A DNA stretch of 64,000 bases from a virus: the IMG/VR virus record IMGVR_UViG_3300050158_000039, positions 28,621 to 92,620 of that record; one strand, written 5' to 3'. The notes beneath the pieces are model-generated. The model was not told where the DNA came from. It saw only the letters and a list, made by a program, of their open reading frames with translations, and made no database searches. This document shows positions 20,355-54,413 of the stretch, one piece after another. Position 1 is the first letter of the stretch; each line of letters starts with the position of its first letter. The position numbers and the translations under genes were made by a program.

Positions 20355-21491
20355 TCATTCAGCACTGGTCTTCTCCGTTGCGGTGTCCTTGAAGCCAAGT
20401 TCCTTGTACTTGCTTTTCAAGAAGTCCTTGTAATCAGCATCTTTGCCGAGATATTTGTTCATCAGAAGACCTAGCAACTTGATGCCGTTCATGTTCATCG
20501 ATTGAGCGCCAATCGCATAGTCCTTGCGGTCCAAATGCTTGTTGGCTTCGTGATACTGCTCAACAACAGCCACCAGATGGTTGTACATCTTGGTAACCTT
20601 GGTTTGCATCTCGTCGATCTGGCTGATTGCCAGTGCATCATGAGCGAACATTGAGCGCAGGTCATCAACGCCTTCGTCCACCACAGCCTCAAACAGGCGA
20701 CGGGGGTTCGTGATGCTGTCCTTTGCATGATGCAGCGACATGTACTTCTCAGTTTTCACCTTGAACCACAGTTCACCAATCCGGCACACATACCCCTCAA
20801 TATCGGCTTGCATCGAAGGGATGGTTTGGACAAAGTTTGCAACATCCATACCCCACGTGTCAACACGATCGATTACATGCGGACCAAACCGCATTTCCAA
20901 ACTGCCACGAGACATGAACGTACCAGAATCGCGATGGTGAGCGTTCAGTACCTTCAGGTGGGCGTGATCGTAACCGATCACAATGCGGTTGTGGGGAGCA
21001 CACCACTCCATGTTCACTGTGTAGCCGTCTTGTTCCGCCGCCAGCAGTTGCATGTAAAAGTGAGACGGGCTTGGTGCGTTTACACCCAACCACTTCATTG
21101 CGTCGAGCGCTTGTTCAGAAAACAGTGAGCCTTTGGACTTCAGACGCAACTCACCGTTATGGGAATACGTTGACATCAGCGAACCATCAGCCTTCAGCTC
21201 AACAGTATCCACAAGCGACAGATCGAGACCCATGGTAATGGGATTCTCGTTGAGGTTGAAGAATTTGGGCATGGGCCGAGAAGCCAGACGCACAGCGTTG
21301 CCAGCAGCATCAACCTCAAACATGATGCCACGGCATTCAATTGCCGAGGGCATCAGGAAATCCGAATACGACGCCAAGCGGTAGTTGAAGATGCGGTACT
21401 TCACACCGTCCAGGTCAAAGTCCTGGAAGTAAAACGCTTCGTTGGCGGTCAGGGCCATCAGCTCTTGGTACAATTGGTTGAAGTTCATCAC
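20355..21491 (-). CDS. rnlA: T4 Rnl1-type RNA ligase
   Basis: ECRGIMFE, RPMPKFFNLNE, motif I KADGS, EGYV and FKVKTEKY motifs. Confidence 0.92.
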   Translation of the reverse strand: MMNFNQLYQELMALTANEAFYFQDFDLDGVKYRIFNYRLASYSDFLMPSAIECRGIMFEVDAAGNAVRLASRPMPKFFNLNENPITMGLDLSLVDTVELKADGSLMSTYSHNGELRLKSKGSLFSEQALDAMKWLGVNAPSPSHFYMQLLAAEQDGYTVNMEWCAPHNRIVIGYDHAHLKVLNAHHRDSGTFMSRGSLEMRFGPHVIDRVDTWGMDVANFVQTIPSMQADIEGYVCRIGELWFKVKTEKYMSLHHAKDSITNPRRLFEAVVDEGVDDLRSMFAHDALAISQIDEMQTKVTKMYNHLVAVVEQYHEANKHLDRKDYAIGAQSMNMNGIKLLGLLMNKYLGKDADYKDFLKSKYKELGFKDTATEKTSAE

Positions 21492-21548
21492 ATCTCCTTG
21501 AAATCAATAGACGCTACTCTATCAGAGATCGCGTCTAGGGTCAACGGG

Positions 21549-22301
21549 TCACTCAATCAACGAGCATACGCCGCTGATGTATGCACATACCCGATCCATT
21601 TCAATCGGATCAGTGGCCTTGAGTGATGTCCGTAGTTGGCCTTGTGCGTCGCATGAAATGTTCGGATACGCCTTCAAGATGGGCGCTAAATTCATGTACG
21701 TGTCAGGGCCAAGGCCGCCTGCAACAGCAATCTGATCTTCACCAAAGTGCTTCAAGGCAGTTTCAACCATCTCAACCATGTGTTGAGGATTGAACGGAGT
21801 GCCACGGCCCATCCCACAGTCAAGGAGCACGTAATCAGCAAGACCTTCGTACATTGCGAGATCACGCTCCCAATCAGGCGATTCACTAATCGCCGTGTGT
21901 CCAATTTGCTGAATGATTTCAACGTGGGGGTACACAGCTTTCAATCCAGACAGCAATTTGGGGTCTGGCCACTTCATATCCAACTGAATTGCATCTACGG
22001 CATTGTGCCCACACCGGTCAACAGCCCGCATCAAGTCAACCAGGTTACTGCGATCGTCGTAATCTGCGTAGTGGATTACGTTGTACACCTCATGCCTGCG
22101 GAGAAACATGCTGTGAATCTCTTCAGGAGTAGGCCAGATGTTTTCCCATCCTGTAGCTGTCGGAACATCGTTGATCGTCTTCCAGCTACACATCAATCCA
22201 ACGTGCAGACGACGATTTGCTTCGGGAGGAATACACGTAAGAGCTTGATTGATTTGGTCCAGGCTCTTGAAGTCAGTTACGCCAATATATGGTTTCTTCA
22301 T
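21549..22301 (-). CDS. TrpF/phosphoribosylanthranilate-isomerase-like TIM barrel
   Basis: AIQLD, YVLLDCGMGRG, VAGGLGPD and SCDAQG pattern. Confidence 0.6.
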   Translation of the reverse strand: MKKPYIGVTDFKSLDQINQALTCIPPEANRRLHVGLMCSWKTINDVPTATGWENIWPTPEEIHSMFLRRHEVYNVIHYADYDDRSNLVDLMRAVDRCGHNAVDAIQLDMKWPDPKLLSGLKAVYPHVEIIQQIGHTAISESPDWERDLAMYEGLADYVLLDCGMGRGTPFNPQHMVEMVETALKHFGEDQIAVAGGLGPDTYMNLAPILKAYPNISCDAQGQLRTSLKATDPIEMDRVCAYISGVCSLIE

Positions 22302-22548
22302 TTTGATCCGTTTCTGGAAGTATCTCAACTCGTGAAATTGTCGTTATCTTATCATTGGTAATGACTACTGCATTCACTCATCGTCTTCTGAATCGTGGTA
22401 TCCCCTACACCAGGATTCATACAATTCGGGTTCTTTGGTGGGGTCATACTCGTTGTCAGTCATAGGGAGATCACTCTGTTGAGCTGACACTCCATACCAA
22501 TATGCGTTCTCAATCGCTCGCTGTGATAGTTCGGTCATCTTAGTATCC

Positions 22549-22770
22549 TCAAAAGCGGTCGGGGTATTGTTGCCTCATCCAAGCATCAGCCGCTTGCCAC
22601 CACCCATCATCCCACATGGCCCAAGGTGAGCCATCATATTTGTCACCTTTTGGGTATGGGTTATCAGTGTCTAGCAAGGACGCATCGAACGCCTTTGCAC
22701 CTTCTTGCTCAATCACTTCAGAATCATCAAATTCCAATGGTTCATCAAGACAGTCAAGTTCTAGCATCAT
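22549..22770 (-). CDS. Acidic Trp-rich hypothetical protein
   Basis: NPYP...WxxWDDGW motif; GGAG RBS. Confidence 0.5.
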   Translation of the reverse strand: MMLELDCLDEPLEFDDSEVIEQEGAKAFDASLLDTDNPYPKGDKYDGSPWAMWDDGWWQAADAWMRQQYPDRF

Positions 22771-23254
22771 GCTGGATCTCCTGTAGTAACGGGGTTGGGT
22801 CGAGCAGAAAGTCTGGTTGTGATTGATCCACCTGCCAGAGCATTGTGTGTGGTGCACTGTACTTCTTCCACCGCTCCAGATGCAGCATGTCCATTGGACG
22901 ACCCTTGTCTGTTTTCAGGACGCGCTTGAGTTGGGCAATGTACTGCCCCTCTACCACCACATCACCGACTGCTCGCGTGACGGGGCGTTGGATTTCACCG
23001 TACACCCAAATCCCCGTATCGTCCTGCACAGCCATTGCCCAAGTATCTTCCCACCACGGCATCCCAACAGCTTCGCCAGTGAATTGATACAGTGCAACGA
23101 TTACGCCAGATGAGATCGCTTGAACCAGTGCGTTCTTTCCTGCATATAAATCAATTCCTTCGTGCCTATGATGCTTCCGAATCGTTCCGAAAGCACCCGG
23201 ATGCTCACTGGTTGGCAACTGCGAAATGTCGTAAGAGTTGATTGGGAAGATCAT
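22754..23254 (-). CDS. M23 family peptidase
   Basis: HEGIDL (HxxxD) and MLHLE motifs. Confidence 0.75.
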   Translation of the reverse strand: MIFPINSYDISQLPTSEHPGAFGTIRKHHRHEGIDLYAGKNALVQAISSGVIVALYQFTGEAVGMPWWEDTWAMAVQDDTGIWVYGEIQRPVTRAVGDVVVEGQYIAQLKRVLKTDKGRPMDMLHLERWKKYSAPHTMLWQVDQSQPDFLLDPTPLLQEIQHDART

Positions 23255-23255
23255 T

Positions 23256-23831
23256 TTAGTCCACGTATAGGGCCATGTTGTCAGCACTCAGAGTCATCTC
23301 ATTGATCTGACACACGAGGTCAACCACGTCTTGTTCATACATCACAAAATCACGGGCGCGGTATTTGTAAATTCGGTTGATTGTCGCAACCGGAAAGGTG
23401 ACAGCATTGATCGACAGCCGCTTGCGTTTGACATGACGAATGAACCTGGGGTCAAATTCAAACACTTCGCCGTCATACGCAGCCATACACACTGTGAAGT
23501 CAAATGAGTGAATCAACTCACTCATTGTACGGTAGTACCGCTTTGTGATGCACTGAATCTTGGTGTCGTCTTCATCCTTCAGTGTGGTTAGCTCGCCTTT
23601 CGGGCACTGCCAGACAACTGTCCAACCCATGATTTCCAGCTGCTTGACAACTCCCTCCGCCAACCTTGCGTTGGCAAAGAACAGATCATAGTCAGCCACA
23701 TCGTGGGTTGGGTCGATTACAGTGCGAAGCGAGCCACCAGCCAGCCACACGCCTCCGGGGGTGAGAATCTCCAGCACATCGGAGTGTAGCTTTTTCAGCC
23801 GCTTGGATTCGATGTCTAGATTACACCGCAT
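23256..23831 (-). CDS. Class II nucleotidyltransferase (CCA/poly(A) polymerase head domain)
   Basis: WLAGGSLR, DYDLF and SFDFTVC motifs. Confidence 0.75.
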   Translation of the reverse strand: MRCNLDIESKRLKKLHSDVLEILTPGGVWLAGGSLRTVIDPTHDVADYDLFFANARLAEGVVKQLEIMGWTVVWQCPKGELTTLKDEDDTKIQCITKRYYRTMSELIHSFDFTVCMAAYDGEVFEFDPRFIRHVKRKRLSINAVTFPVATINRIYKYRARDFVMYEQDVVDLVCQINEMTLSADNMALYVD

Positions 23832-25543: not shown

Positions 25544-25619
25544 TGGTGCGCTCGGCGGGATTCGAACCCGCGACAAACGGTTTTAGAGACCGCCGCTCTA
25601 ACCACTGAGCTACGAGCGC
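25544..25619 (-). tRNA. Amber suppressor tRNA (anticodon CTA)
   Basis: Fully canonical 76-nt cloverleaf, GCGGT-CTCTAAA-ACCGT, A73 followed by CCA. Confidence 0.9.
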
Positions 25620-25628
25620 ATGGCGGCT

Positions 25629-25657
25629 ATTATACGGCGGTTATTCAACAATGTCAA
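25629..25657 (-). promoter_or_regulatory. Perfect sigma70 promoter of the suppressor tRNA
   Basis: TTGACA-17 nt-TATAAT. Confidence 0.9.
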
Positions 25658-26716: not shown

Positions 26717-26790
26717 TGGTTGCGTGGTCTCGGAATCGAACCGGCCCTCAAGCTTATGAGACTCGCGTGCTACCATCACACTCACCCGCA
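26717..26790 (-). tRNA. tRNA(CAT), atypical
   Basis: CGAGT-CTCATAA-GCTTG; imperfect T and acceptor stems; ACCA end. Confidence 0.6.
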
Positions 26791-26806: not shown

Positions 26807-26884
26807 TGGAGCGGGTGGGGAGATTCGAACTCCTCACCTAAAGTTTGGAAGACTTTCGTGCTAACCGTTAAACACTACACCCGC
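26807..26884 (-). tRNA. tRNA-Gly(TCC)
   Basis: AAAGT-CTTCCAA-ACTTT, U73 followed by CCA. Confidence 0.92.
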
Positions 26885-27298
26885 ATTATCAGGAACTGAC
26901 AGATTGTATTTATGTATTTTGCGATGGCAGTTTGCGCACACACAAACACACTTAGACAATTCTGCTTTCAACTTTTCAAAAGAGCTATTGGTTACCAACT
27001 TAGAGATCAAGAATTCTTTCTGAGTTGGGTCCTTGTGGTGAAAGTCTAAACATGCTTCATCTGTTTCACCACACATGCAACATGACAGAGATTGTTTCCA
27101 AGATTGGAAGGTTTGCTTCTTCCTTAGATTTCGGTCAACATTCTCAGCAATCACCTGCTCACGATGGTTTACATAAAACCGCCGTTTCATTTCACGATCA
27201 CATGGTTTGCAATTGTTCTTTCTGAGGCCTTGGCTTTTATTTCGCCAATTAAAATCTTCATCGGGTTTTATTTGTTTGCAAACTACACACGTTATCAT
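26861..27298 (-). CDS. HNH endonuclease (homing type)
   Basis: CxxC motifs, LDFHH...CANCHRKIH; sits between two Gly tRNAs. Confidence 0.85.
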   Translation of the reverse strand: MITCVVCKQIKPDEDFNWRNKSQGLRKNNCKPCDREMKRRFYVNHREQVIAENVDRNLRKKQTFQSWKQSLSCCMCGETDEACLDFHHKDPTQKEFLISKLVTNSSFEKLKAELSKCVCVCANCHRKIHKYNLSVPDNAGVVFNG

Positions 27299-27299
27299 T

Positions 27300-27375
27300 T
27301 GGAGCGGACAGCGGGTCTCGAACCCGCAACCTTCACCTTGGCAAGGTGATGTACTACCAATTGTACTATGTCCGC
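27300..27375 (-). tRNA. tRNA-Gly(GCC), second copy
   Basis: TCACC-TTGCCAA-GGTGA, CCA. Confidence 0.92.
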
Positions 27376-27393
27376 ATTGTACTTCTATTTATG

Positions 27394-27468
27394 TCTCGGT
27401 AGTAGGATTCGAACCTACGACCCTCTGCTCCCAAAGCAGATGCGCTAACCAGACTGCGCTACACCGAG
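27394..27468 (-). tRNA. tRNA-Pro(TGG), canonical
   Basis: TCTGC-TTTGGGA-GCAGA. Confidence 0.92.
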
Positions 27469-27474
27469 ATGAGT

Positions 27475-28350
27475 ATGGTTGAGATTACACCATTAATGTT
27501 AGCACTTTTGAGTCATTATCCAACTAGTTGCTACACCAGCGGTTCTACTCTTATCCACATCCTCAAGGATGTACACTAACATGACTGCCTTATTTAGAGC
27601 GTGGCGGTTCGCTCGTCGTACAACGCTATTCGAAGTTTCCTCTACCGCCAACCTTGCGGGCTGTTCAAGAGCGCTAACTCTCTACGTGCGATTCTTCTTC
27701 AACAATCTCTGCCTTGCGAGCTTTGATTGCCTGCATTACTTTTCAGCTGCAGGATTAAGCCACTTTCACGTTGCACCGGACGCAACTTTGCGTTTTTGAT
27801 AAAGATTTCATACCTATTGAAATGTGCGGAATCACCCGCTGCATAACCTACCGAGATGTGTGCGTCCAGTTGCTTCATAACCTTTTGGGCTACGAAATAC
27901 AACACACCTCATATCTTTCACCTGCCGGCTACTCAATCAACTTTCAAGAACACTGACAACATATCTCAGTCACCGATGCCCTATCAGTTTGCATTACAGC
28001 CTTTGAGTGCGAATCTCAGACCATAACACTACCTTTAACCATACGTATTGGTCAGTTGGTTTTGTTGTGAAGTCGCCACCACGCGTTACTTTCCGTCTAC
28101 TTGCGTTACCCTTGCGGGCGCTTGAGCAAACGTTCTTTCCACAACACTGACTTCCTACCTATAACCGCGGTCAGCGATTACTTCCTTTCGGAAGAGGTTT
28201 AGGCTTGCATGGATTGACCACCACCTTTCGGTTTTGGCGCAGATGTGTAGGACATTCTGCTTTTACGTGTCGCCACGCTTATCGGGGCCATGCCCCAAAA
28301 CTACTTTCACGGAAAACCGTCTTTCACAGTCGTCTGTGAAAGTAGTTTCG
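27475..28350 (-). ncRNA. Large ornate ncRNA, GOLLD/ROOL-like (about 0.9 kb)
   Basis: No credible ORF; many GNRA-capped hairpins (CCGAAAGG, CCCGCAAGGG, TTCCGAAAGGAA); directly upstream of tRNAs. Confidence 0.6.
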
Positions 28351-28364
28351 ATTTACTACTAATT

Positions 28365-28376
28365 TCTTAAAGAGCG
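28365..28376 (-). promoter_or_regulatory. boxA-like antitermination element
   Basis: CGCTCTTTAAGA, compared with the rrn boxA TGCTCTTTAACA, just 5' of the large RNA. Confidence 0.55.
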
Positions 28377-28594
28377 TTGCAAGCTGTTGTTGCTTGCGAT
28401 GTCGTCATCTGTATTACGTTTTCGTCTTTAAGTCAACGGGCATCTATTTAGTATCGGGTAAAAGAGAGTTGCTGTTGTGGGGATCAATCCCGCCCTTCTC
28501 AACAACGTGTCGTTTAACCGATGCAGTGAACTATAGCAAAGGGTAAAGATTAAGTCAACGGACCTGCTAAATACCCTATCTGGAGATCGTTAAC

Positions 28595-29299
28595 ATGAAG
28601 CTGCAACAAGTACTGGAAGGCATTGAAGATCAGCACACATTGATACGTGCAGCTAACTCATTGTATGCAAAGTTGAAGCCAATGGCAACATCAGAGTTTC
28701 AGCCAAGCGAAGCGCAAATGTTGGGGCCTATTGGCAAGTTTGTTAACACAGGCAATAAGCAGATTGATGCTATTGATGTTGTCCTGTATGGCGCTGAAGA
28801 GATGCAAGCATTCGCTCGACAGGAATACAGCGAAGAAAATGCAGAGCGGTATATGGGATTTTGGGATCCTGAATATAAGATGCTTGTGCTCAATCGCGAT
28901 CGGTTGGGTGAATCTCGCATGCGGACGATTATTACCCACGAATTGCGTCATGCGCTGGATGATATCTTGTCGGGATACCGCGCAACGAGTAGTGATCGGT
29001 ACACTCAGGCACCAGATGCGTCTAACTCCGATCGAGATTATCAGTACCTAGCTAGTCCAATGGAGCTCAATGCGCGATTCTCTGAGGTTCTCCATTTGAT
29101 GACAGGAGTAATGCGCAAGGCGTTACGTGAGAATCCAGCGAATGCTCGCGATGTGGCTATTAAGCGCTTTGGGGAGGCAATGCGTGCTCGTCAGATTGAG
29201 CAGTTGTTCCCTGAAAAGACAAAGTCCCGCACCTACCGTCAATTGGTCAAGCGCGGGATGTTGTTCATTGACAGCTTTCTCGAGAAGCAAGGTCTTTGA
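28595..29299 (+). CDS. HExxH zinc metallopeptidase-like protein with leader MKLQQVLE
   Basis: IITHELRHALD and YLASPMELNAR; TAAATA at 28568-28573. Confidence 0.7.
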   Translation: MKLQQVLEGIEDQHTLIRAANSLYAKLKPMATSEFQPSEAQMLGPIGKFVNTGNKQIDAIDVVLYGAEEMQAFARQEYSEENAERYMGFWDPEYKMLVLNRDRLGESRMRTIITHELRHALDDILSGYRATSSDRYTQAPDASNSDRDYQYLASPMELNARFSEVLHLMTGVMRKALRENPANARDVAIKRFGEAMRARQIEQLFPEKTKSRTYRQLVKRGMLFIDSFLEKQGL

Positions 29300-29855
29300 T
29301 CGTGTGCAGAATTGCGGCAGCAGCGTCATCACCCGATTCTGTCGTGTAGAAGTCGATCTCCTCAGTGAGCAAATATTCTAACACTCGTTGATCAATCTCT
29401 TTTGCCTCTTCCTCAGTCTGATTGCGACCTTCTTGCACGTACTCAAACGCATCACTACGCAACAGGTAGATATTGATGTTTGAGTAGCTGTTGTACACAT
29501 CTTGTATGAATTGCTTGAATGACGGCGGAAAGTCGTCAGGCATGTAGAACAACCCAAGGATCAATGAGCTATCAACAATCACATAGTCAATATCGTGACC
29601 AACCAGTCGGCGTTGTAAACGGTGTTGATGAGCAAAGATGTAATCTTGTTCACGGAAGATGTGATCCCATCGCTCCCACACGAAGTCTTTTGCAATCTCG
29701 TGAATCAGTTCAACCTTGTACCCCCGCTTTTTCATCAGGGAGTACAGATCAGCAGCGCACGTTGACTTTCCTGTGCCAGGGCCACCAAAGAAGTTGATTA
29801 CCTTCAACTTCTTGTTGTCAGCCCACGGCCGTGTATGTTTATTTGTTGGGTTCAT
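29265..29855 (-). CDS. P-loop NTPase/kinase (NadR/AAA_28-like)
   Basis: GGPGTGKST, VIVDS and EGRNQ motifs. Confidence 0.75.
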   Translation of the reverse strand: MNPTNKHTRPWADNKKLKVINFFGGPGTGKSTCAADLYSLMKKRGYKVELIHEIAKDFVWERWDHIFREQDYIFAHQHRLQRRLVGHDIDYVIVDSSLILGLFYMPDDFPPSFKQFIQDVYNSYSNINIYLLRSDAFEYVQEGRNQTEEEAKEIDQRVLEYLLTEEIDFYTTESGDDAAAAILHTIKDLASRESCQ

Positions 29856-30180
29856 TCAGCTTCCTTTTGGCGGCATTGATCCGCTCATTGAATTCTTGGA
29901 TTTTGCGGATCGACAACTTTCGTGCAACCTCCCACTCCTCACGCGTTTTCCATACTCGGTTGGCGGACTTTAGGTCAAGATAGTCCCCCACATGAGTGTC
30001 AACATGCAACACATAATGCACACCGAGGCCTTGCGAAGTCTCATTGTCAACTACACTGACCACCTTGGCTGTATAGGGGGTTGTCTTGGCGTAATCGTGA
30101 CCGTACATGGTATACACAATATCCCCCACAGCATGGTCAACAACCGTAACAGTGTTGATGAGGTGGTCTAGGTCAATCAT
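29839..30180 (-). CDS. Hypothetical protein
   Basis: 113 aa with GGAG RBS. Confidence 0.6.
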   Translation of the reverse strand: MIDLDHLINTVTVVDHAVGDIVYTMYGHDYAKTTPYTAKVVSVVDNETSQGLGVHYVLHVDTHVGDYLDLKSANRVWKTREEWEVARKLSIRKIQEFNERINAAKRKLNEPNK

Positions 30181-30243
30181 GTGTGTCTCCGAAAACAGGA
30201 AAACCCCACCATACTCAATGACGGTGGGGTTTTCAACAGCTGA

Positions 30244-31278
30244 TTACAGCTTGCCGAGCAGGGCCTTGATCACGTGGTAGTGATCCTCAAACATTTGCGA
30301 CTCAGACAGCTCACTGATCGGGAGCCAGAAGGCGCTGCGTGCATCGTCGCTCCCTTTCACTGTGGGGAGCTCACCAGGCGGCAACTCAATCAGGTACGCG
30401 TGGGTGATCGTGCGGCCACGCAAGGAGCGGTCAGGGCGGTCAAACACGCCCCGGTACTTGATGCTTCCCTTTAGGACTGGAGTAGGCACCCGCAGCTTGG
30501 TCTCCTCACGGAGTTCACGCAACACACCGTCCTCGATCCATTCGTCCTGGTTGAGGAATCCACCAGGCATTGCAAACAGACCCTCACCAGGAGCGGCATC
30601 GCGTTCAACCAACAGAATGTGGCCAGATTGAACAACCACAGCATCAACCGTAACGAAGATGGGGGCGTATGGAGCAGCTTCCCATGCCTTCTTGTACGAC
30701 TTGATCATGTTGTATTCGCGTTGGAGCAGCTTGAAGTCTTCCGTGTAAGTGAACCGCTCCAGCTCAACCAAGACTGATTGAGGGAGAACGCCAGACAGGA
30801 ACTTCAGGCTCTTGCCTTCAAACATGATTTCACGCAGGTCGGTAGCATTGATGTTCTCGTTCATCTCGTGATCGATCAGCTTCCACTGCGGGAACATCTT
30901 CAGGTAGTACGACGATTCATCCTTGTTGTGGCCGATCAGGGCGATCTTGAGGGAGCGAGTGCTGCTAATCTGCGCAGCGGCTTCGTCCACGAGACGTTGG
31001 ACTTCTGATGCCCAAGCTTGATCGTTGTACTTCTGGTCGTGCAGCGGCTTCACCTCAGTGCGGCAACGATCAGCTTCATCCAGGCCCCCGTAGATCATGG
31101 CTTCACGTTCATGAAACAGCCACGGATTCTTGCTGGTACGGGGTTGGTTGCTGCTGCCAACAAGGACAACAACATCTTCTGCCATGGAAAGTGCGGTTTG
31201 GATTACGTTGATGTGTCCGGTATGGACGGGTTGAAAACGACCGATAAAGACAATCAGGTCATAGGGCTTTTGGGACAT
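30244..31278 (-). CDS. nadM: Bifunctional NMN adenylyltransferase / Nudix (ADP-ribose) hydrolase
   Basis: GRFQPVHTGH, INATDLRE and Nudix box GGF...LRELREET. Confidence 0.92.
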   Translation of the reverse strand: MSQKPYDLIVFIGRFQPVHTGHINVIQTALSMAEDVVVLVGSSNQPRTSKNPWLFHEREAMIYGGLDEADRCRTEVKPLHDQKYNDQAWASEVQRLVDEAAAQISSTRSLKIALIGHNKDESSYYLKMFPQWKLIDHEMNENINATDLREIMFEGKSLKFLSGVLPQSVLVELERFTYTEDFKLLQREYNMIKSYKKAWEAAPYAPIFVTVDAVVVQSGHILLVERDAAPGEGLFAMPGGFLNQDEWIEDGVLRELREETKLRVPTPVLKGSIKYRGVFDRPDRSLRGRTITHAYLIELPPGELPTVKGSDDARSAFWLPISELSESQMFEDHYHVIKALLGKL

Positions 31279-31769
31279 TTGAAACTCCTTCAAATTGATT
31301 TGATATGTGACGGTCTATCCATCACATGCGTATATAGTAGTTTAACCGTTAACGGAAATCAACACGCAGATCCATGCCGGCATCATAGAGAGACCGCCTT
31401 TACAGGCGGCGAACTATCAGCACGTTACTCACTACGTTCATAACGTTGCCATAGTTCGGAAGCTGTCATACTCGGTTAATACAAGCCGGGCTCTTTAATC
31501 ATCCCCTGCCCCCGCATTAACGCAGCTGATTTGGAAGATACCTCGCGGCCTGAGAACACAGGCTTACTGTTTTGGTAAAAAAGGAGCCATTACTCCCAAG
31601 GTGGTCAACTTTATGGCTTCTATAGCCAAAGGCTCGTTAGACTGGCTCCACAGTCTCTGTTCCCACTCCGGAGGCAGAAAAGGCATGCACTCCTGATGTT
31701 TCTAGTTATTACGCTGTGTTGTTTCAGCGGCCTACTTCGTTGGCAGGCTTTAGTATCTATCGTTGCTCG

Positions 31770-53749: not shown

Positions 53750-53910
53750 GAAAGAAGTCCGTGAGGCTCGCAAAAAGATCAAGCATGCGATCCATAAGCG
53801 CGAGCGCAACATAGGTAAGCAACAACTAAGACACATTATTGATCACGACGACGAAGAATCGCTAGATTGTGACAGTTGACGTTTCCCTCAAAATATGAGT
53901 AAATAGACGT

Positions 53911-54200
53911 ATTGCTGTGAACATCCTACAAAAGTAGGAACAGAAGTGGATAGAAAGAGTTCAGGACGCGGGTTCGACTCCCGCCATCTCCACCACAAAT
54001 CACACCAATTGGTGTGATTTGTAATGGGGATGTCATGGTTTCGACTGGGCGATGAGTATTGAAGTGGACAGCACGGTAGGCGATGACCGTAAATCAAGCA
54101 AATCAACTAAATGCTAACGATGCATTTTACGGAGAAATGCGCCTAGCGGCGTAAACTCCACGGGGTCTGATCAACCTTGTAACCCAACATGATTAAAGAG
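53911..54200 (+). ncRNA. ssrA: Two-piece (circularly permuted) tmRNA
   Basis: The acceptor piece ends GGACGCGGGTTCGACTCCCGCCATCTCCACCA (53995). An intervening hairpin follows. The coding piece starts GGGGATGTCATGGTTTCGAC (54026), with tag ANDAFYGEMRLAA* at 54113-54154. Outer ends approximate. Confidence 0.93.
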
Positions 54201-54223
54201 GTGGACTAACATCCACCTCTTTC
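54195..54223 (+). terminator. Intrinsic terminator after tmRNA
   Basis: AAAGAGGTGGA-CTAACA-TCCACCTCTTTT. Confidence 0.8.
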
Positions 54224-54413
54224 CATTTGCTGTGTGTAATCCGCTCCTTGATAAAAAGGTGCCCTTGCAGCTTAATAACATACCGGCATGAGGTGTGATT
54301 AACCTTATTACCAAACTAATAACGAGAGCACCTTCGGGTGCTCTCGTTATTTGGGTTTCTCCGCCCCAACATTTCGCTCGTATATACCTGCACCTTATGG
54401 AGGGAATACGAGA

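What the first reader, a model, noticed from the sequence alone, without database searches (positions are those of the whole stretch)
27475..28430. Large ornate RNA (about 0.9 kb) transcribed with tRNAs behind a boxA-like element
Seen: about 880 nt without a credible ORF, rich in GNRA-capped hairpins and purine-rich linkers, opening with the AAACTACTTTCAC/GTGAAAGTAGTTT stem. It is preceded by CGCTCTTTAAGA and TTGACT boxes and followed by tRNA-Pro and tRNA-Gly. Known: GOLLD and ROOL RNAs are large phage-associated RNAs next to tRNA genes with unknown function; boxA mediates rRNA-type antitermination. Inference: a GOLLD/ROOL-class or new large RNA, transcribed like an rRNA operon.
Basis: partly seen in the sequence, partly recalled or inferred. 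Interest (0 to 1): 0.68.

Follow-up and report, generated by a model that had tools for sequence, protein, structure and literature searches.

The report
Phage GOLLD RNA with rRNA-style leader
This gene-free stretch of a giant bacterial virus encodes a known large cage-forming RNA (GOLLD) and begins with the same 'keep transcribing' signal that bacteria put in front of their ribosomal RNA, so the phage probably borrows the host's rRNA machinery to make it, though no experiment shows this yet.

Summary
It is a GOLLD RNA, not ROOL and not a new class. Rfam RF02032 matches 27910-27476 (-) over the whole model: 219 bits against a cut-off of 150. The 5' half, which Rfam does not model, is shared with at least 41 other GOLLD loci, and the window keeps 74 of 77 base pairs derived without it. 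The conserved core runs from about 28296 to 27476 (about 820 nt). The boxA holds up: it fits the published consensus, a Roseateles rRNA leader has the same word bar one base, and boxA lies just upstream of 21 of 62 non-redundant GOLLD loci (0 antisense, 0.23 in shuffles), usually after a -35 hexamer and a hairpin. It is optional: the nearest relative lacks it. Co-transcription is likely for tRNA-Pro (7 nt away) and uncertain for tRNA-Gly. I found no paper linking boxA to GOLLD. The scan has seen this same RNA in two other records, and boxA-GOLLD leaders in Bacteroidota phages. Verdict: new member of a known family with an apparently unpublished, testable rRNA-like biogenesis.

The parts
28530..28558 (-). 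Promoter P1, sigma-70 type, TTGACT-17-TATAGT with extended-10 TG
   Evidence: 10 of 12 matches; consensus match only
28445..28451 (-). T4-type late-promoter word CTAAATA between P1 and P2
   Evidence: TAAATA precedes 43 of 222 ORFs of the contig against 2.9 expected; a sigma-like ORF sits directly before two genes that look like T4 gp47/gp46 (gp55 identity inferred from order)
28408..28436 (-). Candidate promoter P2: -35 TTGACT (28436-28431), weak -10 TACAGA (28413-28408); shares a 12-mer around the -35 with P1, found nowhere else in the contig
   Evidence: the -35 is 61 nt before boxA, and 15 of 21 boxA loci have a -35 at 50-69 nt
28379..28397 (-). boxB-like hairpin, 6 bp with a 7-nt loop, ending just before boxA
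   Evidence: a hairpin of 5 bp or more precedes boxA in 14 of 21 loci vs 29% of random positions
28365..28376 (-). boxA, CGCTCTTTAAGA
   Evidence: matches GYTCTTTAANA (10.1101/091223); Roseateles rrn leader has GTTCTTTAAGA; enrichment across GOLLD loci
28298..28348 (-).
   Evidence: a helix of 9 bp or more joins the post-boxA and pre-core segments in 9 of 16 loci vs 1.7% of cross-locus pairs; processing role inferred
27911..28296 (-). GOLLD 5' (cap) domain, not covered by the Rfam model; about 20 covarying helices
   Evidence: nhmmer hits in 41 other loci; hold-out 74/77 pairs, 20 compensatory; pair counts
27476..27910 (-). GOLLD 3' (ring) domain, with a linker of about 70 nt that holds no tRNA
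   Evidence: Rfam RF02032, 218.8 bits, E 1.4e-60, model 1-416 of 416; linker tRNA in 38 of 65 loci but not here
27393..27468 (-). tRNA-Pro(TGG), 7 nt after the GOLLD 3' end, no terminator-like site between
27386..27392 (-). Late-promoter word ATAAATA directly after tRNA-Pro
27300..27375 (-). tRNA-Gly(GCC)
26861..27298 (-). HNH endonuclease gene (145 aa) between two tRNA-Gly genes
   Evidence: phrog_2255, E 1.7e-28
26807..26884 (-). tRNA-Gly(TCC), preceded by another ATAAATA at 26913

Best explanation
Shown: the locus is a full-length GOLLD gene (core about 820 nt) of a T4-like jumbo phage, preceded by an rrn-type leader in the order promoter(s), hairpin, boxA, helix. Inferred, biogenesis (about 0.65): host RNA polymerase starts at P1/P2, or late in infection at the TAAATA word; boxA recruits host NusB-NusE(S10) and the rest of the rRNA antitermination complex, which carries polymerase through about 1 kb of untranslated RNA past Rho and helps it fold. 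The leader helix is cut off (RNase III-like) to give a 5' end near 28297, and RNase P cleavage of the abutting tRNA-Pro gives the 3' end. Inferred by homology (about 0.8): the product self-assembles into a hollow RNA-only cage of roughly 10-14 copies, perhaps with an altered seam between the half-shells because hairpin P24 is short and lacks the usual GNRA loop. Ultimate role (about 0.25, weakest step): an abundant, stable RNA particle belonging to the phage's translation-protection kit (52 tRNA calls, tmRNA, RNA ligase), acting as a decoy or binding partner for host RNA-targeting defences or ribosomes. It cannot depend on an embedded tRNA, since this member has none. The confidence given covers identity plus Nus-dependent, rRNA-like transcription.
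For: Identity. boxA: 21 of 62 loci sense, 0 antisense, shuffle mean 0.23, maximum 2; no sense hit from the start of the 3' domain to 5 kb downstream. Context: -35 at 50-69 nt in 15 of 21 (control 24%), hairpin in 14 of 21 (control 29%). boxA loci are scattered over the GOLLD tree (11 changes, at least 7 forced), so near-copies do not explain the count. Host match: a permuted, betaproteobacterial-type tmRNA in the same phage, and Roseateles/Pelomonas rrn leaders with hairpin plus GTTCTTTAA[G/A]A. In the contig this is the only relaxed boxA match (1 of 33) that has a promoter-like -35 at the fitting distance. boxA is necessary and sufficient for the rrn antitermination complex (PMC10250234). No phage NusG or NusB in the contig (52% complete). 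Cage contact loops L3, L14, L20 with J13/15, L21a and L21b are present.
Against: 41 of 62 loci, including the nearest relative L096 and the four cultured phages examined, have no proximal boxA, so GOLLD can be made without it. The -10 of P2 is degenerate; from P1 boxA would lie about 150 nt into the transcript. The RNA is G-rich and C-poor (241 G, 168 C) and highly structured, so it is not an obvious Rho substrate. The locus sample was gathered with patterns taken from this RNA and is biased, and the 350-800 nt interval was fixed after the first look. No transcript, processing or binding data. The host is inferred only. A Lactobacillus GOLLD was dispensable for phage production (PMC7567579).
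Confidence: 0.65

Rival explanations
1. The RNA is GOLLD, but this boxA is a leftover or of little effect: the RNA is made mainly from the phage late promoter or P1 by unmodified polymerase and needs no Nus complex.
For: Nearest relative and two thirds of loci lack boxA; P2 -10 is decayed; late-promoter word at 28451; G-rich structured RNA may escape Rho.
Against: Hairpin, boxA and leader helix are all intact together in the geometry seen in other loci; the word matches a likely host group's rrn boxA; transcripts from P1 or the late promoter would still contain boxA.
Confidence: 0.24
2. boxA is functional but acts mainly as a sink: abundant leader RNA titrates host NusB-S10 and lowers host rRNA synthesis, or it only assists folding without any antitermination.
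For: boxA loss has only 2- to 3-fold effects on rRNA in E. coli (PMC10250234), and boxA has non-antitermination roles such as suhB repression.
Against: Only one such site is in the contig; its placement 25-35 nt after a promoter in most loci fits loading onto elongating polymerase.
Confidence: 0.09
3. It is ROOL or a new class of large RNA, or the 5' half is a separate unknown RNA fused to GOLLD.
For: The 5' half has no Rfam hit and no BLAST match in cultured phages before query position 417.
Against: Full-model GOLLD hit and no ROOL hit; the same 5' domain directly adjoins the GOLLD 3' domain in 41 other loci; its first 75 nt map by eye onto the start of the solved env-38 GOLLD; the family is defined with a variable 5' region.
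Confidence: 0.02

Closest known systems
GOLLD RNA (Rfam RF02032); env-38, 833 nt, 14-mer cage, PDB 9MEE (PMC12286853); Streptococcus agalactiae GOLLD, 700 nt, 12-mer, PDB 9L0R (PMC12990946)
   Same: Whole 3' domain, size, phage tRNA-island context, two-domain plan, start of the 5' domain (hairpin, ATAA, GNRA hairpin, AAA, P4), and the loops of bridges B1 and B6-B9.
   Different: The rest of the 5' domain was not aligned to env-38 and looks divergent by eye; P24 is short with a TTGA loop (GCAA or GAAA in 27 of 53 rows); no tRNA in the linker; has an rrn-type leader that the held papers do not mention.
[quoted passage not shown]
   Same: Two promoter-like sites, hairpin then boxA about 30 nt after the second, a long untranslated structured RNA flanked by a helix and followed by tRNAs.
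   Different: Cargo is a phage RNA; no boxC at the rrn spacing; the helix closes within the leader rather than pairing leader with a trailer around the RNA; a phage late-promoter word is added.
boxA outside rRNA operons: suhB and other genes (10.1101/091223), CRISPR arrays (cited in PMC13753749), lambdoid nut sites
   Same: Host Nus factors recruited by boxA for a non-rRNA transcript.
   Different: Order is hairpin-then-boxA (rrn-like), not boxA-then-boxB (lambda-like); no N-type protein was searched for; no start codon follows closely, so suhB-type repression does not apply.
ROOL RNA
   Same: Large, ornate, phage-borne, near tRNAs, cage-forming.
   Different: No Rfam ROOL hit; unrelated structure.

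Membership tests
GOLLD RNA | Conserved 3' domain scoring above the Rfam gathering threshold | tested here: met
   218.8 bits vs 150, model 1-416, untruncated
GOLLD RNA | Variable but structured 5' domain; total length about 700-850 nt | tested here: met
   core about 820 nt; 95.7% of cells paired, 69 of 79 pairs with two-sided changes in 30 sequences (structure derived from that alignment); hold-out 74/77 vs 25-39/77 for shifted partners
GOLLD RNA | Phage or prophage location near tRNA genes | tested here: met
   183-kb virus record with 52 tRNA calls; tRNA-Pro 7 nt downstream
GOLLD RNA | Loops that make the 3'-domain intermolecular bridges B6-B9 | tested here: met
   L14 CAAAA, L20 GC with J13/15 GC, L21a with GC, L21b GCAA; L20 and L21b were part of my search pattern, so their conservation in the sample is by construction
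GOLLD RNA | L24 adenosines of bridge B10 and 5'-domain bridges B2-B5 | tested here: inconclusive
   L24 is TTGA on a short stem; B2-B5 not mapped because env-38 could not be aligned with the tools
GOLLD RNA | Expression as one stable RNA; cage assembly | not testable with these tools
   needs RNA-seq/Northern and mass photometry or cryo-EM
ROOL RNA | Rfam ROOL model match | tested here: not met
   no hit at gathering level in the window or at E 10 in 27900-28600
rrn-type antitermination leader | boxA consensus GYTCTTTAANA | tested here: met
   exact match at 28375-28365
rrn-type antitermination leader | Hairpin (boxB) immediately 5' of boxA, just after a promoter | tested here: met
   the -10 of the proximal promoter is weak
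rrn-type antitermination leader | boxC at a fixed short distance after boxA, pairing with a trailer | tested here: not met
   a boxC-like 13-mer lies 79 nt after boxA, inside covarying GOLLD helices; no trailer partner was sought beyond the fold
rrn-type antitermination leader | NusB-NusE binding and Rho-resistant elongation | not testable with these tools
   needs binding assay and reporter

The most novel reading that the evidence does not exclude
Large phages repeatedly equip GOLLD genes with a host-matched rRNA leader (promoter, boxB, boxA) and a leader processing helix, so that the host rRNA antitermination and maturation machinery makes and folds a ribosome-sized phage RNA cage. This would show that machinery working on a non-ribosomal, self-assembling phage RNA and give a genetic handle (boxA, nusB, rnc) on GOLLD levels.
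Probability: 0.55. Interest if true: 0.6.

Novelty: new member of a known kind. Interest (0 to 1): 0.42.

Why it matters
GOLLD has solved cage structures but no known function and little known about how it is made. An rrn-type leader in a third of sampled loci makes its biogenesis directly testable with one point mutation and a nusB deletion, and suggests that phages treat it as an rRNA-like, high-copy product. This member also narrows function: it has no embedded tRNA, so storage of a linker tRNA is not the family's essential role. The RNA itself is not new.

Tried and rejected
ROOL or new class: rejected. Protein coding: rejected. boxA significance within the window alone: not above chance with 2 mismatches; it took cross-locus tests. 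One viral pattern scan found nothing and another was mostly chance hits. The genome-contig scan gave one GOLLD in 120 loci (L390, no boxA), so boxA type could not be matched to named hosts across phyla; the host comparison rests on three rrn leaders. A naive covariation list was too noisy and was replaced by a hold-out test. Phage-encoded NusG, NusB and Ro60/TROVE: not found in the 52%-complete contig, which does not show absence. The late-promoter word is only weakly shared upstream of GOLLDs (7 of 62 vs 1 antisense). Literature: no relevant paper with GOLLD plus boxA (one search gave only unrelated substring hits) and none with jumbo phage, tRNA, boxA and antitermination; the original GOLLD paper and the Mycobacterium GOLLD paper were not held under the ids I tried, so prior mention there is not excluded. 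env-38 could not be aligned by tool because its sequence exists only as paper text.

Full report
Setting. The window is part of a 183-kb linear virus record, about half complete, with 52 tRNA calls and a permuted tmRNA. The tmRNA passes the Rfam betaproteobacterial model (117 bits vs 84) and its best phage match is a Ralstonia jumbo phage, so a betaproteobacterial host is likely but not shown. The RNA ligase gene is closest (about 42%) to 320-350 kb phages of Vibrio, Stenotrophomonas and Xanthomonas and to T4-like phages. TAAATA precedes 43 of 222 ORFs against 2.9 expected, and a weakly sigma-like ORF sits before two genes resembling gp47/gp46; I infer a T4-type late transcription system.

Observation. 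The region has no credible ORF, differs from its nearest relative by 13 frame-breaking gaps at 75% identity, folds better than shuffles and is rich in GNRA hairpins.

Identity. Rfam gives GOLLD at 27910-27476 over the whole model, 218.8 bits, E 1.4e-60, and no ROOL. The Rfam model covers only the conserved 3' domain; the family has a variable 5' domain (PMC12286853). I collected about 80 GOLLD loci, nearly all viral, by pattern scans and iterated nhmmer and reduced them to 75 non-redundant ones. A structure derived from 29 relatives without the window has 77 pairs with letters in the window; 74 are standard pairs there, 20 by change on both sides, against 25-39 for shifted partners. On the 30-row alignment 95.7% of cells pair and 69 of 79 pairs show two-sided changes (this count leans towards the structure because it was derived from the same rows). 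Sequence conservation starts at the hairpin at 28296-28284, followed by GATAAG and a GNRA-capped stem. By eye this matches the first 75 nt of the solved env-38 construct.

Cage contacts. Of the bridges listed for env-38, the loops for B1 (L3 GNRA), B6 (L14), B7 (L20 with J13/15, GC with GC here), B8 (L21a) and B9 (L21b) are present. P24, which supplies B10, is short with a TTGA loop where about half of the relatives have GCAA or GAAA. B2-B5 were not mapped. Published GOLLDs form 10- to 14-mers depending on such details (PMC12990946), so a cage is likely and its size is open. The linker has no tRNA, unlike 38 of 65 loci.

The leader. From upstream: a good sigma-70 promoter P1 (28558-28530), a late-promoter word (28451), a second -35 with a poor -10 (28436-28408), a 6-bp hairpin, boxA (28376-28365), and the 13-bp helix. 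The boxA fits GYTCTTTAANA. The G at the variable position is natural: Roseateles rrn leaders read GTTCTTTAAGA after a hairpin. Within the window a loose boxA search is at chance level, so I tested across loci. A boxA word lies 350-800 nt before the 3' domain in 21 of 62 loci, in none on the opposite strand and in 0.23 on average after shuffling; the sense-strand profile peaks there and is empty for 5 kb downstream. Fifteen of 21 have a -35 at 50-69 nt and 14 of 21 a hairpin, against 24% and 29% at random. On a tree of GOLLD cores the boxA loci are scattered. The nearest relative, L096, has tandem promoters but no boxA, so the element is optional and is gained or lost often.

The 'opening stem'. 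In 9 of 16 boxA loci a perfect helix of 9-19 bp joins the segment after boxA to the segment just before the core, with unrelated sequences; cross-locus pairs do so in 1.7%. Four of the seven loci without it carry a tRNA gene in that leader, which would free the GOLLD 5' end by another route. I read the stem as a processing helix; this step is inference. At the 3' end tRNA-Pro starts 7 nt after GOLLD with no terminator-like site between, so RNase P processing would define that end. tRNA-Gly(GCC) and tRNA-Gly(TCC) each have their own late-promoter word, so the operon claim is firm only for tRNA-Pro.

Mechanism and odds. Identity as GOLLD 0.97. Nus-dependent, rRNA-like transcription 0.65: boxA is necessary and sufficient for the rrn complex in E. 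coli, and no phage NusG or NusB was found. Cage formation 0.8, by homology. Final role as a decoy or partner in protecting phage translation 0.25; the support is only context (tRNAs, tmRNA, RNA ligase, a nucleotidyltransferase) and the reported ribosome pull-down.

Known and new. The RNA is a new member of a known family. The leader is a known mechanism on a cargo for which I found no paper, though two key GOLLD papers were not readable. The scan reported this same RNA in two other records and boxA-GOLLD leaders in Bacteroidota phages; these are unchecked notes, consulted after my own enrichment test. Limits: the sample is biased by my patterns, the host is inferred, and nothing here is experimental.

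Noticed in passing
window 28285-28273 (-): The 13-mer CCGATAAGCGTGG at the start of the GOLLD core is identical to the boxC region of Roseateles and Pelomonas rrn leaders, whose partner lies in the 16S trailer. Rough chance about 0.003, post hoc. In GOLLD these bases sit in covarying helices and vary among relatives, so it is probably coincidence, but pairing with host pre-16S RNA is not excluded.
   Followed up: partly
window 26717-26790 (-): tRNA-like gene with anticodon CAT and a CCA end, missed by ARAGORN and by Rfam at gathering level; the acceptor stem appears to have a bulged A (seen). Relative L096 has a Met(CAT) tRNA just after its GOLLD.
   Followed up: no
window 25544-25657 (-): Stand-alone amber-anticodon (CTA) tRNA under a perfect TTGACA-17-TATAAT promoter. 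TAG ends 23 of 222 ORFs and reading TAG as sense raises coding coverage less than the TGA control does, so the contig does not look recoded. CTA tRNAs also occur beside or inside several related GOLLDs (L063, L169, L183, L271, L289).
   Followed up: partly
window 53903-54245 (+): Permuted two-piece tmRNA of betaproteobacterial type, tag ANDAFYGEMRLAA, in a phage.
   Followed up: partly
L001 2499-2932, L002 2380-2817, L003 2374-2830, L004 2528-3008: GOLLD genes are unannotated in the GenBank records of Stenotrophomonas phage RAS14, Xanthomonas phages XacN1 and X1 and Caulobacter phage phiCbK; none of the four has a proximal boxA.
   Followed up: partly
L001 about 1730-1840 and L002 about 1740-1870: RAS14 and XacN1 share a second conserved, unannotated tRNA-like structured RNA upstream of the GOLLD promoter.
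   Followed up: no
GOLLD loci listed, 800-6000 nt upstream: Further boxA words occur on the sense strand in the upstream tRNA arrays (38 sense vs 5 antisense in all), suggesting boxA also heads phage tRNA clusters.
   Followed up: no
window 29265-31293 (-): NAD-salvage-like genes upstream of GOLLD: a cytidylyltransferase-NUDIX fusion (NadM-like) and an AAA_28 kinase-like gene.
   Followed up: no
window 20355-23831 (-): T4 Rnl1-type RNA ligase and a nucleotidyltransferase-like gene downstream, part of a likely tRNA repair set.
   Followed up: no
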